In this document: positions 24,297 through 26,096 of the stretch, piece after piece | Position numbering within the stretch: position 1 is the first letter of the stretch | Layout: every line of letters begins with the position of its first letter | Sequence record: ON528734 | Strand: one strand, 5' to 3' | Source: Shigella phage ESh24 | Length of the DNA: 64,000 nucleotides | The notes under the pieces: generated by a model | The model's input: only the letters and a program-made list of their open reading frames with translations | Databases searched by the model: none | What the model was told of the DNA's origin: nothing | Translations under genes and position numbers: made by a program

Positions 24297-24905
24297 ATGA
24301 AAATGCAAAGTGATTTCAATTCAATGTTTGAAGAGTTCCAAAGACATGTTGATGTTCCAGACCAATTATTAAATGCTCTTAAACGTATGGCAGAAGGGCG
24401 TAATTATTATTGGGGTTCTTCATATGAAACTGATGAAAGTCTTTCTGGAAGATTTTCTAGAGGTAAAAAGTCTTTAATACGTCCTGGAATACTTATTAAC
24501 AGTATTGAATCAATTCATTTATTAACATGTGATTTTGACGTTGAATTTACTGATTTTGTTTCTCCTGAATGGACGGTCTGTTATTTAAACGACGATTATG
24601 ATTATCTTGGCGTTTATAGTTTAAGTGATGCATGGTTTAAACGTAATTTACAAAAGTCAAATTTATTCTATATTGATACTACTGTAAAGTTTCAGGGCAA
24701 GAAATATTTCTTTACTCTTATAGTTGATTCTGAAACGAAGCATGAAAATAAACGTATTCTTAGTAAAAAGAATATCTTAACTATTGTTGATGATCTTTTT
24801 GATAAATTCGTAGAAAATCCCAATTTTGAAAGCGATTTATTACTAGAAAAATTTGTTAAGGAATGTAGAGAATATGTCAAAGCCATCAATGTATCTTCCA
24901 AGTAA
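24297..24905 (+). CDS. hypothetical protein
   Basis: 202-aa ORF. Confidence 0.6.
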   Translation: MKMQSDFNSMFEEFQRHVDVPDQLLNALKRMAEGRNYYWGSSYETDESLSGRFSRGKKSLIRPGILINSIESIHLLTCDFDVEFTDFVSPEWTVCYLNDDYDYLGVYSLSDAWFKRNLQKSNLFYIDTTVKFQGKKYFFTLIVDSETKHENKRILSKKNILTIVDDLFDKFVENPNFESDLLLEKFVKECREYVKAINVSSK

Positions 24906-25266
24906 ACCCTTAAAGTATGAATTAAAGCGTCAGATAATTTCTACTGATGTATTAATAGGTCCTGTTATACTCATATCATTTGTAATTCTATTGATTATTG
25001 GAGGTGTTTTAGATGTTATGACTGATATTGATTCTGGCGAAATACTGGTATTAATGCTAATTCTTCCATTAATAGTTCCACTTTTATTAGTACCTGTAAA
25101 TTGGGTAGGATACTGGTATCAAGGAAGACATTATCGTAAACGCGTACGTGATTGGAAAGCACAGTGTGAAAAGATTAAAAAGGAACACCAGCTTAAACTT
25201 GCTGCGTATGAATTTAATGAAATTATGAAATTTGTTAAGGAATCACGATGCAAAAGCCAAAACTAA
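24874..25266 (+). CDS. small membrane protein, paralogue family member 1
   Basis: ~130 aa from ATG 24874; two hydrophobic helices; C-terminal tail FVKESRCKSQN; overlaps upstream gene end. Confidence 0.55.
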   Translation: MSKPSMYLPSKPLKYELKRQIISTDVLIGPVILISFVILLIIGGVLDVMTDIDSGEILVLMLILPLIVPLLLVPVNWVGYWYQGRHYRKRVRDWKAQCEKIKKEHQLKLAAYEFNEIMKFVKESRCKSQN

Positions 25267-25610
25267 ATAAAGTCAAATATTCGCTTCCTGAGTCATTTTT
25301 AATTTTTGCTGTGGCGTTGGCTGCAGCTCTTGCGGGTAGTCTTTTTGGATTGTTAATTGACTGTCTTATTTTAAACATTGACGGCACAGTAAATATAATA
25401 GAAGTTTGGAGTGAACTTCACTATACTAAAATTATTTCATTATTTTCATTCTTTGGTACCATGTTATATTTTCATTATGATAATTTTAAAATAAATTGGC
25501 AAAGAAAAAAAGATTACAAAATACAATTAAAAGAATATAATAGTTACATGTCTCATATTGAAAAAGAATCAATGGAAGAGTTTGTGAGTGATTGTAGGAA
25601 AATCAAATGA
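25248..25610 (+). CDS. small membrane protein, paralogue family member 2
   Basis: 120 aa; two TM helices; C-terminal EEFVSDCRKIK. Confidence 0.6.
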   Translation: MQKPKLNKVKYSLPESFLIFAVALAAALAGSLFGLLIDCLILNIDGTVNIIEVWSELHYTKIISLFSFFGTMLYFHYDNFKINWQRKKDYKIQLKEYNSYMSHIEKESMEEFVSDCRKIK

Positions 25611-25747
25611 TTTTAAAAACTCGCTGGTATGATTTAGATGATGGGGATGATGGCATTTCAGTTGATAGAGTTGATTGGAATGGTTGTTCCAAAGATATGA
25701 AAAATTTGTTGATTAGGGAGTTTAGAATGGGATTATCAAGCAACTAA
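25607..25747 (+). CDS. small hypothetical protein
   Basis: 46 aa; ATGA start/stop overlap with the previous gene. Confidence 0.35.
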   Translation: MILKTRWYDLDDGDDGISVDRVDWNGCSKDMKNLLIREFRMGLSSN

Positions 25748-25775
25748 GCCATCTATTATAACAGATGATAAATTC

Positions 25776-26077
25776 GTGTGTATTCATAATGGTCGCGCTA
25801 AGTTAACGAACGCTGATTGGTTCACAGATAAAATTATGATTCTGTGGTATATTATTAGTCTTCCTGTGACATCATTCGTATTTTACTTTTTTATAAAAAA
25901 TCCAATGGGCAGAATAGGAGATTGGATTCTTTTAACCATACTTGTTAATATTTTTACAGCAGCAATATTATCTGGGATATGGTACACGTTCATTGAAATG
26001 CCATGGCGGCTACGCAGACAACAAAAGATTTTTGATGAAAAGAAATATACTCAAAATTTAAATAACTTTATCACTGA

Positions 26078-26096
<19 letters not shown>
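25776..26096 (+). CDS. small membrane protein, paralogue family member 3
   Basis: 106 aa; two TM helices; C-terminal [11 protein letters not shown]. Confidence 0.6.

What the first reader, a model, noticed from the sequence alone, without database searches (positions are those of the whole stretch)
24874..26096. Three tandem paralogous two-helix membrane proteins with a conserved cytoplasmic tail
Genes at 24874, 25248 and 25776 each encode ~105-130 aa with two hydrophobic helices and a basic C-terminal tail ending in a related motif ([33 protein letters not shown]). They sit immediately upstream of nudE and e. Tandem duplicated small inner-membrane proteins in T-even phages are candidates for superinfection exclusion, lysis timing or membrane-defence interference.
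Basis: seen in the sequence. Interest (0 to 1): 0.5.

Follow-up and report, generated by a model that had tools for sequence, protein, structure and literature searches.

The report
T4 e.2–e.5 genes share a tail motif
The three "genes" are the known but uncharacterised phage T4 genes e.4, e.3 and a frameshifted e.2; their shared tail is real, also ends the soluble neighbour e.5, and marks the gene array after e.6 in eight T4-like phage genera, so it offers a way to find what these non-essential early proteins bind.

Summary
The window is a Tequatrovirus (T4-like phage). The genes are T4 e.4 (24874-25266, 130 aa) and e.3 (25248-25610, 120 aa). The "third gene" at 25776 is not a gene. It is the 3' two-thirds of e.2, which is 162 aa in relatives and is split here by an extra T at 25733 seen in none of 389 matching phage records.

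e.4 and e.2 have two clear hydrophobic helices; the second helix of e.3 is marginal. The tail similarity passes alignment statistics. e.4 and e.3 align over their whole 43-residue cytoplasmic tail (hhalign E 3e-7). e.2 shares only the last 14 residues (E 4e-4).

Arg uses both AGR (10) and CGN (9) codons, so selection acts on the peptide, not only on the embedded ribosome-binding site. Natural gene losses have their end-points in the motif.

In T4 these proteins are made early and are non-essential. Function is unknown. My inference is a shared docking helix. Superinfection exclusion is untested.

The parts
23662..24255 (+). e.6 (197 aa, old name msp3). Conserved helical protein that precedes the motif-bearing array in all eight genera examined.
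   Evidence: 52-100% identity across genera. It has its own early promoter in GenBank L13089.
24258..24278 (+). G+C-rich hairpin with a UUCG-type loop between e.6 and e.5.
   Evidence: Annotated as a stem_loop in T4 L13089 and as a putative terminator in ATK47.
24297..24905 (+). e.5 (202 aa, soluble, no predicted TM helix).
   Evidence: PHROG 2607 E 9e-109; no hydrophobic segment.
24852..24872 (+). e.5 tail motif FVKECRE, directly upstream of the e.4 ATG.
   Evidence: F186, C190, R191 and E192 are four of only seven invariant columns across five genera.
24874..25266 (+). e.4 (130 aa). Hairpin membrane protein with TM1 about 24949-25020 and TM2 about 25042-25107. Overlaps e.5 by 32 nt.
   Evidence: PHROG 2604 E 3e-70; hydropathy; relatives carry PF26873.
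25231..25254 (+). e.4 tail motif variant FVKESRCK. It contains the AAGGAA Shine-Dalgarno sequence and the ATG of e.3.
25248..25610 (+). e.3 (120 aa). TM1 about 25296-25373; marginal second helix about 25431-25475. Overlaps e.4 by 19 nt.
   Evidence: PHROG 2330 E 4e-60; hydropathy; AF2 helices 13-44 and 58-119, pLDDT 64.
25581..25601 (+). e.3 tail motif FVSDCRK.
   Evidence: piN/piS 0.07 with piS 0.17.
25607..25747 (+). 5' fragment of e.2 (46-aa ORF as read in this window). Its ATG overlaps the e.3 stop (ATGA).
   Evidence: PHROG 2203 positions 1-43; alignment to RB3 and teqhad.
25733..25733 (+). Extra T that frameshifts e.2.
   Evidence: Absent from all 389 matching phage records.
25734..26096 (+). 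TM1 about 25836-25898, TM2 about 25920-25994.
   Evidence: PHROG 2203 positions 62-166; hydropathy of the repaired protein; AF2 helices 70-96 and 103-161, pLDDT 52.
26067..26087 (+). e.2 tail motif FITECRK.
   Evidence: piN/piS 0.07.
25589..25610 (+). Left copy of the 22-nt tail, ribosome-binding-site and start repeat (end of e.3). This is the recombination joint in phages that lack e.2.
   Evidence: T2, PP01 and ZN18-type loci lack exactly 486 nt between the two repeats.
26075..26096 (+). Right copy of the same repeat (end of e.2).
26093..26533 (+). nudE (e.1) Nudix hydrolase. Its ATG overlaps the e.2 stop. This is the last gene of the overlapping run e.5 to nudE.
   Evidence: PHROG 1185 E 6e-74; annotation in RB3.

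Best explanation
Shown: the locus is the T4 gene run e.5, e.4, e.3, e.2, nudE. The genes overlap one another (by 32 nt, 19 nt, ATGA and ATGA) and lie behind e.6. e.4, e.3 and e.2 are small inner-membrane helical hairpins, probably N-in/C-in, although the second helix of e.3 is marginal. Selection acts on their cytoplasmic parts: a basic W-R/K juxtamembrane segment and a terminal amphipathic helix of the form hydrophobic-x-x-F-[IV]-x-x-C-R-[KREG]. The TM and loop parts drift or diversify. The same terminal helix ends soluble e.5 and many otherwise unrelated soluble and 2-TM proteins in the array after e.6 across Straboviridae. e.4 and e.3 are true paralogues. e.2 shares only its architecture and the tail. 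The repeated unit of tail, ribosome-binding site and start codon is also where genes are lost: e.2 in T2 and PP01, and apparently e.4 in IME08, whose e.5 tail joins e.3 directly (inferred from its sequence, not aligned).

Inferred: the tail is a portable docking helix. Through it, a set of fast-evolving early proteins, some of them membrane-anchored, bind one common partner at or near the cytoplasmic face of the inner membrane. That partner could be the other array members or one conserved protein. The syntenic, highly conserved e.6 is the obvious candidate but is untested. In e.4 orthologues the Cys is replaced by S, I, V or M, so it probably packs as a small hydrophobic residue rather than binding a metal. 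The downstream biological role (host takeover, exclusion or anti-defence) is not determined.
For: Identity, order and overlaps.

T4 annotation L13089 places promoters before e.8, e.7 and e.6 only, with a stem-loop after e.6.

In T4 the transcripts are early and all five proteins are detected by mass spectrometry (PMC9697503 supplementary files 4 and 6).

Hairpin architecture: hydropathy and AF2 helices.

Selection: piN/piS is 0-0.03 in the juxtamembrane segments, 0-0.07 in the e.5, e.3 and e.2 motifs with piS 0.09-0.17, and 0.4-1.2 in TM and loop regions.

e.4/e.3 tail homology: E 2.8e-7, and still 5e-5 without the motif. The e.5 tail aligns to e.3 (E 4.3e-4) and e.2 (E 3.7e-3), against control E-values of 0.14-0.53.

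Array-wide motif: 19 of 76 ORFs downstream of e.6, 0 of 53 upstream, 3 of 645 genome-wide. Carriers include soluble proteins of 93-299 aa and 2-TM proteins.

Peptide-level conservation: Arg codons AGR 10 and CGN 9, Cys TGT 11 and TGC 9. The motif persists where the Shine-Dalgarno sequence lies elsewhere (IME08 e.5) or where no gene overlaps it (Kpn6N 102-aa protein).

Amphipathicity: hydrophobic moment 0.59-0.72 in 7 of 8 tails.

Gene-loss joints fall in the motif.
Against: No partner has been identified and no complex was modelled. AF2 confidence is low (pLDDT 52 and 64), so the helical tail is a weak prediction. In several junctions the motif does contain the downstream Shine-Dalgarno sequence (AAGGAA, AGGAAA), so part of its local conservation serves two purposes. 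The e.4 tail shows no synonymous variation at all (piS 0), which looks like nucleotide-level constraint. One of eight tails is not amphipathic (0.23). Knock-down and transposon disruption give no phenotype in laboratory E. coli, so any interaction is dispensable there. e.2 is repeatedly broken or lost in nature.
Confidence: 0.4

Rival explanations
1. One reading: three paralogous membrane proteins that act in superinfection exclusion, lysis timing or interference with membrane-based defence, in the manner of T4 Imm, Sp or RI.
For: They are small early inner-membrane hairpins. They are non-essential in the laboratory. The TM and periplasmic-loop region is the fastest-evolving part, with distinct allelic cassettes in e.4. 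They sit next to the lysozyme gene.
Against: There is no detectable similarity to Imm, Imm.1 or PseT.3. No holin, antiholin, Imm or defence-related family is hit. The conserved parts are cytoplasmic, not periplasmic. The same tail occurs on soluble proteins. Linkage to e and nudE is not conserved in Mosigvirus, Dhakavirus or Gaprivervirus.
Confidence: 0.15
2. The tail is a membrane-targeting amphipathic helix. It lays the C-terminus on the cytoplasmic face of the inner membrane and so brings soluble members such as e.5 to the membrane without any protein partner.
For: The hydrophobic moment is high (0.59-0.72) and basic residues follow the Cys. Soluble and membrane proteins carrying the motif sit in one array.
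Against: Net charge of the tails is about -1 to +2, and e.3 has four acidic residues just before the motif. Strict invariance of F, [IV], C and R is more than a lipid-binding helix normally needs.
Confidence: 0.15
3. The motif is kept mainly because the repeated tail, ribosome-binding-site and start junction lets gene cassettes be gained, lost and exchanged by homologous recombination, as PeSL elements do elsewhere in T4-type genomes. The peptide itself has no function.
For: e.2 loss is an exact 486-nt in-frame deletion between two 22-nt repeats that contain the motif. The junction in PP01 and T2 is chimeric. The IME08 e.5 tail runs straight into the e.3 start, which reads like a junction left by loss of e.4. 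The e.5/e.4 and e.4/e.3 junctions share 16 identical nucleotides. PeSL-mediated shuffling is documented (PMC2839356, PMC4122927).
Against: Across genera the nucleotides differ at synonymous sites while the residues are kept (AGR and CGN for Arg, TGT and TGC for Cys, TTT and TTC for Phe). Such sequences are too diverged to recombine. piN/piS is 0-0.07 with appreciable piS.
Confidence: 0.1
4. The similarity is a by-product of overlapping translation signals. The upstream gene must encode the Shine-Dalgarno sequence of the next gene (K-E from AAG GAA, R-K from AGG AAA), so the tails converge.
For: AAGGAA, TAGGAAA and CAGGAAA lie 6-11 nt upstream of the next ATG at all four junctions. Two junctions are ATGA overlaps.
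Against: F, [IV] and C are not explained by a Shine-Dalgarno sequence. Nine of 19 Arg codons are CGN. The motif persists where the Shine-Dalgarno sequence is separate (IME08 e.5, Kpn6N e.5) and in a gene with no overlapping successor (Kpn6N 102 aa). The motif is absent from every other gene junction in the genome.
Confidence: 0.05

Closest known systems
T4 ORFs e.4, e.3, e.2 (old names msp5, msp6, msp7; UniProt P39222, P32274, P32273; PHROG 2604, 2330, 2203; Pfam PF26873 and PF26896)
   Same: They are orthologues, mostly 80-97% identical with intact e.4 orthologues down to about 70%, in the same order and with the same overlaps. T4 annotates them as 'conserved hypothetical, predicted membrane protein'.
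   Different: In this window e.2 is split by a private +1 frameshift. T4 itself has a different truncation (102 aa). No function or shared motif is recorded in the annotations and papers I could reach.
T4 Imm (superinfection immunity protein, 83 aa, two TM helices)
   Same: It is a small early inner-membrane protein with two hydrophobic helices in a T-even phage, and it is non-essential.
   Different: There is no sequence similarity (best E 0.45) and no Pfam hit. Imm lacks the long basic cytoplasmic helix and the F-[IV]-x-x-C-R tail.
PeSL (promoter-early stem-loop) cassettes that mediate modular shuffling in T4-type hyperplastic regions (PMC2839356, PMC4122927)
   Same: Short conserved sequences at gene boundaries are the end-points of gene gain and loss between related T4-type phages.
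   Different: Here the boundary element is coding (a C-terminal peptide plus ribosome-binding site and start), the genes overlap, and there is no promoter or terminator at the joints. The element is conserved at the amino-acid level across genera.
Capsid-targeting sequence of T4 internal proteins (N-terminal MKTYxEF[IL]xEA)
   Same: It is a roughly 10-residue amphipathic terminal tag shared by otherwise unrelated, fast-evolving proteins encoded next to gene e. The window has three such ORFs (22306, 27137, 27827).
   Different: That tag is N-terminal, is cleaved, and is used for packaging into the head. The present tag is C-terminal and sits on membrane proteins that cannot be packaged. The likeness ('EFIAE' against 'FIAEC') is a lead recalled from memory and was not tested.

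Membership tests
T4 e.4 family (PHROG 2604 / Pfam PF26873) | Full-length profile match | tested here: met
   PHROG 2604 E 3.1e-70 over residues 1-130 of 130. Close homologues carry precomputed PF26873.
T4 e.3 family (PHROG 2330) | Full-length profile match | tested here: met
   E 4.2e-60 over residues 1-118. A profile search of 1.84 billion representatives returns 7 proteins at E up to 0.001; the 5 best are T-even-type e.3 proteins and the 2 weakest look spurious.
T4 e.2 family (PHROG 2203 / Pfam PF26896) | Profile match to the family | tested here: met
   Two pieces match profile positions 1-43 and 62-166.
T4 e.2 family (PHROG 2203 / Pfam PF26896) | Single intact reading frame of about 162 aa | tested here: not met
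   A +1 T at 25733 splits the frame.
Imm superinfection-immunity proteins | Sequence or profile similarity to T4 Imm | tested here: not met
   BLASTP best E 0.45. No Imm family appears in the Pfam scan at E up to 10.
Imm superinfection-immunity proteins | Blocks DNA entry of a superinfecting phage | not testable with these tools
   Needs an exclusion assay.
Holins, antiholins and lysis regulators (T, RI, RIII) | Match to a holin or antiholin family | tested here: not met
   No such family in the Pfam, PHROG or NCBIfam scans.
Known anti-phage defence or counter-defence proteins (PADLOC) | Match to a defence-system model | tested here: not met
   No hits at E up to 1 for e.5, e.4, e.3 or e.2.
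PeSL modular-shuffling cassettes | Early promoter plus stem-loop terminator flanking the mobile ORF | tested here: not met
   The genes overlap. No terminator-like site lies at the junctions. The count of promoter-like sites is about 1.5 SD above the shuffles (31 against 23.2 +/- 5.1). L13089 annotates no promoter between e.5 and nudE.
PeSL modular-shuffling cassettes | Insertion and deletion end-points fall in the conserved boundary element | tested here: met
   e.2 deletion between 22-nt repeats at 25589-25610 and 26075-26096.
Tandem paralogue array (e.4, e.3, e.2) | Significant similarity beyond the terminal motif | tested here: inconclusive
   e.4/e.3: met (E 5e-5 after motif removal). e.3/e.2 and e.4/e.2: not met (E 0.27 and 0.42). 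The e.2 alignment has low diversity (Neff 1.2).
PspA/IM30 (considered for the neighbour e.6) | Profile similarity to PspA | tested here: not met
   No Pfam hit and no PDB hit. hhalign against E. coli PspA gives Prob 0.4% (the PspA sequence was verified).

The most novel reading that the evidence does not exclude
The F-[IV]-x-x-C-R tail is an address tag. It plugs a changing set of early effector proteins, both soluble bodies and membrane hairpins, into one conserved hub, most plausibly e.6. This would give Straboviridae a hub-and-adaptor module whose variable members are swapped at the tag-encoding junctions in response to host or competitor pressure.
Probability: 0.15. Interest if true: 0.65.

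Novelty: new variant of a known kind. Interest (0 to 1): 0.42.

Why it matters
About half of T4's genes, including e.2-e.8, still have no function, and genome-wide knock-down and transposon screens give them no phenotype. A short, strictly conserved tag shared by about 20 otherwise unrelated proteins in eight genera offers a concrete way in. One peptide can be used as bait, and three residues (F, C, R) can be mutated. The tag also groups ORFans that sequence clustering keeps apart: PHROGs and Pfam place e.5, e.4, e.3 and e.2 in separate families. It further shows a coding-sequence route to cassette gain and loss in T4-type hyperplastic regions, alongside the known PeSL elements. For the window itself the practical point is smaller: the 'third gene' is a pseudogene fragment or a sequencing error.

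Tried and rejected
1. Full-length paralogy of all three proteins. Pairwise BLASTP is marginal (E 0.012, 0.011 and 1.9). hhalign with Tequatrovirus-only alignments gives Prob 1-7%. Only after adding Mosig-, Dhaka-, Gapriver- and Jiaodavirus orthologues did e.4/e.3 become significant. e.2 never did beyond the motif.

2. Ribosome-binding-site artefact. Rejected on codon usage and on non-overlapping cases.

3. e.6 as a PspA/IM30-like protein, with the hairpins as PspB/C analogues. Rejected at sequence level.

4. Cys as a metal or redox ligand. This is weakened because e.4 orthologues carry S, I, V or M at that position.

5. Structure-based function for the e.2 N-terminal domain. The AF2 model is too poor (pLDDT 29-58 over residues 1-76), so no fold search was run.

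6. e.5 against PDB and Pfam: nothing found.

7. The NCBI name 'sulfurtransferase' given to e.3 and e.4 in some records has no NCBIfam or Pfam support.

8. Literature. No paper in the held library discusses e.2-e.5 or msp4-msp7 in its text. The T4 genome review (PMC150520) is not held.

9. IMG/VR gave only four related loci.
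Full report
**Identity of the locus**

The window is a Tequatrovirus. The stretch 24200-27100 is 97.3% identical to Shigella phage SH7 and 90-97% identical to about 500 T4-like genomes. Annotated relatives give the gene order e.6, e.5, e.4, e.3, e.2, nudE (e.1), e. An old T4 GenBank record names e.8 to nudE as msp1-msp8. That record places early promoters before e.8, e.7 and e.6 only, with a stem-loop after e.6.

Both are full-length matches to PHROG 2604 and PHROG 2330.

**The third "gene" is a fragment of e.2**

ORFs 25607-25747 (46 aa) and 25776-26096 (106 aa) match positions 1-43 and 62-166 of one family, PHROG 2203. Alignment with RB3 and teqhad shows a single extra T at 25733 (GGGATTATC against GGGA-TATC). 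This splits an e.2 that is otherwise 162 aa long. None of 389 matching phage records carries the insertion. It is therefore either a private mutation or a sequencing error.

e.2 is often damaged or missing elsewhere:
- It is truncated to 102 aa in T4.
- It is called as 122 aa in some phages.
- It is absent from T2, PP01 and ZN18-type phages.
- It is fused in frame to the N-terminus of e.4 in UFV05 and UFV06.

**Architecture**

e.4 has two strong hydrophobic segments (Kyte-Doolittle 2.85 and 3.04). Repaired e.2 has two (1.99 and 2.17) behind a soluble N-terminal region of about 75 residues. e.3 has one strong segment and one marginal segment, with a 19-residue mean of 1.07. The marginal segment is clearer in the Dhakavirus orthologue at 2.05.

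The N-termini and tails are rich in K and R. The loops of e.4 and e.3 are acidic or neutral, while the short e.2 loop carries one K and one R. Overall this points to N-in/C-in topology.

AF2 models have low confidence (pLDDT 64 for e.3 and 52 for e.2). They show the second helix continuing without a break into the tail.

**Are they paralogues?**

Pairwise BLASTP is marginal. Profiles built from Tequatrovirus sequences alone are too shallow, giving Prob 1-7%.

I then added orthologues recovered from Mosigvirus ATK47, Dhakavirus IME08, Gaprivervirus VR7 and Jiaodavirus Kpn6N. With these, e.4 and e.3 align over their whole cytoplasmic tail: 43 columns, E 2.8e-7, Prob 93%. They still align after the terminal motif is removed (E 5e-5). 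Reversed and column-shuffled controls score 11-17 against 44.9. e.4 and e.3 also share the N-terminal start M-x-K-P-x-L.

e.2 matches e.3 only over the last 14 residues (E 4.3e-4) and shows nothing once these are removed. So e.4 and e.3 are paralogues. e.2 shares only the architecture and the tail.

**The tail motif extends beyond the finding**

The soluble upstream protein e.5 ends in LLLEKFVKECREY.... Its tail aligns with the tails of e.3 (E 4.3e-4) and e.2 (E 3.7e-3). The control proteins e.6 and nudE give E 0.14-0.53.

[FYW][VILM]x[ED]CRx occurs three times in the six-frame translation of the 64-kb window, all at these C-termini. A broader form of the motif is absent from every other ORF of 50 aa or more in the window and in the rest of the T4 genome.

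Across five genera the e.5 family is only 17-18% identical in its most distant members. Even so, F186, C190, R191 and E192 are four of its seven invariant columns.

I used e.6 as an anchor to fetch the arrays of Mosugukvirus PM2, Tegunavirus fHe-Yen9-01, Biquartavirus Asfd_1 (an Aeromonas phage) and Karamvirus KMB19. Over eight genera, [FW][IV]xxCR lies in the last 25 residues of:
- 19 of 76 ORFs within 3.3 kb downstream of e.6;
- 0 of 53 ORFs upstream of e.6;
- 3 of 645 ORFs genome-wide, those three being e.5, e.3 and e.2.

The carriers are soluble proteins of 93-299 aa and 2-TM proteins of 98-127 aa. The gene directly after e.6 always carries the motif.

**Peptide or nucleotide signal?**

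The motif often contains the Shine-Dalgarno sequence of the next gene (AAGGAA or AGGAAA), and two junctions are ATGA overlaps. However, in 20 instances:
- Arg is encoded by AGR 10 times and by CGN 9 times;
- Cys is encoded by TGT 11 times and TGC 9 times;
- Phe is encoded by TTT 14 times and TTC 5 times.

The motif also persists where the Shine-Dalgarno sequence lies elsewhere (IME08 and Kpn6N e.5) and in a gene with no overlapping successor (Kpn6N 102-aa protein).

Within 15 Tequatrovirus loci, piN/piS is 0-0.07 in the e.5, e.3 and e.2 motifs, with piS 0.09-0.17. It is 0-0.03 in the basic juxtamembrane segments. It is 0.4-1.2 in the TM and loop parts. Selection therefore acts on the peptide.

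The e.4 tail is the exception. It has no synonymous variation at all, which suggests extra nucleotide constraint.

e.4 orthologues carry S, I, V or M where the others have Cys. This argues against a metal or redox role for the Cys. Seven of eight tails are strongly amphipathic, with hydrophobic moments of 0.59-0.72.

**Recombination at the junctions**

Phages without e.2 lack exactly 486 nt between two 22-nt repeats at 25589-25610 and 26075-26096. Their junction is chimeric, with e.3 sequence on the left and the e.2 end on the right. IME08 lacks e.4, and its e.5 tail runs straight into the start of e.3, which reads like the same kind of loss. The UFV06 fusion uses a 6-nt microhomology.

This resembles PeSL-mediated shuffling (PMC2839356 and PMC4122927) but uses a coding junction. 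There is no promoter or terminator at the joints.

**What is known experimentally**

- T4 e.2-e.6 have early transcripts, and all five proteins are detected by proteomics (PMC9697503 supplementary files 4 and 6).
- CRISPRi-ART lists their function as unknown and their knock-down as 'Not Fit' (PMC11879866 supplementary files 8 and 15).
- HIDEN-SEQ calls them non-essential (10.1101/2025.11.20.689424 supplementary file 7).
- No Pfam, NCBIfam, PADLOC or PDB family is hit.
- There is no similarity to Imm, Imm.1 or PseT.3.
- The e.3 profile finds 7 proteins at E up to 0.001 among 1.84 billion representatives. The 5 best are T-even-type e.3 proteins and the 2 weakest look spurious.

**Interpretation**

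Shown:
- This is a run of overlapping early genes.
- The membrane members are hairpins whose conserved parts are cytoplasmic.
- All members, soluble ones included, end in one conserved amphipathic helix.
- That helix marks the array behind e.6 across the family.

Inferred, at about 0.4 confidence: the helix is a docking tag for a common partner. e.6 is the obvious untested candidate. The idea that e.6 is PspA-like was tested and rejected.

**Verdict**

The genes themselves are already catalogued. The array-wide tail motif and the gene losses that end in it appear not to have been described. I rate this a new variant of known T4-type ORFan arrays, of moderate interest.

Noticed in passing
window 25733: A single extra T frameshifts e.2. 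It is absent from all 389 matching phage records. It does not lie in a long homopolymer (TT against T), so it could be a real pseudogene or a sequencing error.
   Followed up: yes
L008 3770-4564; L011 2848-4093; L012 2800-3381; L023 5607-6650; L024 4753-5776; L026 4503-5029: A second tandem family sits in the same arrays of non-Tequatrovirus genera. These are three or four small soluble paralogues, each ending in G-x-W-[VI]-S-S-S-x-x-C at the very C-terminus (RB69 ORF135c-137c type). The family is absent from the window and from T4.
   Followed up: partly
L014 1275-1595 (phage UFV06); protein P0098: A natural in-frame fusion of the e.4 N-terminus (31 aa) to the C-terminal 75 aa of e.2. It deletes e.3 and the e.2 N-domain at a 6-nt microhomology. 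The fusion keeps two TM helices and the tail, and is seen on 5 contigs.
   Followed up: partly
window 24940-25110 (e.4 TM1, loop and TM2): e.4 exists as distinct allelic cassettes in this segment, for example GPVILISFVILLIIGG...TDIDSGE against VEIIPVIMFTISTIIGF...HNKNASRE. piN/piS is about 0.9-1.2 here, while the flanks are nearly invariant. This could reflect diversifying selection or mosaic recombination.
   Followed up: partly
window 22306-22869, 27137-27718, 27827-28300: Three ORFs begin with the internal-protein capsid-targeting sequence (MKTYAEFLTEAAK, MKTYKEFIAEASV, MKTYQEFITEAAI). The first lies between the tRNA cluster and e.8, where RB3 and T4 have no such gene. The third matches DUF7412.
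   Followed up: no
window 20117-21519: A cluster of nine tRNA genes (Rfam) is interrupted by a 216-aa ORF at 20361-21011. That ORF looks like a GIY-YIG homing endonuclease (segB position). It was not tested against Pfam.
   Followed up: no
window 24258-24278: A G+C-rich hairpin with a UUCG-type loop lies between e.6 and e.5. It is conserved as an annotated stem-loop or putative terminator in T4 and ATK47. No T-run follows it on the + strand, so it may act as a processing or stability element rather than a terminator.
   Followed up: no
database annotations of e.3, e.4 and e.6 homologues: e.3 and e.4 are named 'sulfurtransferase', and e.3 is named 'DNA primase', in some NCBI records. e.6 is named 'host specificity protein' in RAST-type annotations. 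None of these names is supported by Pfam or NCBIfam scans.
   Followed up: partly
window 28406-28996: A 196-aa ORF after the internal-protein genes has only weak P-loop or AAA-like Pfam hits (E 0.016-0.3). Its identity was not resolved.
   Followed up: no
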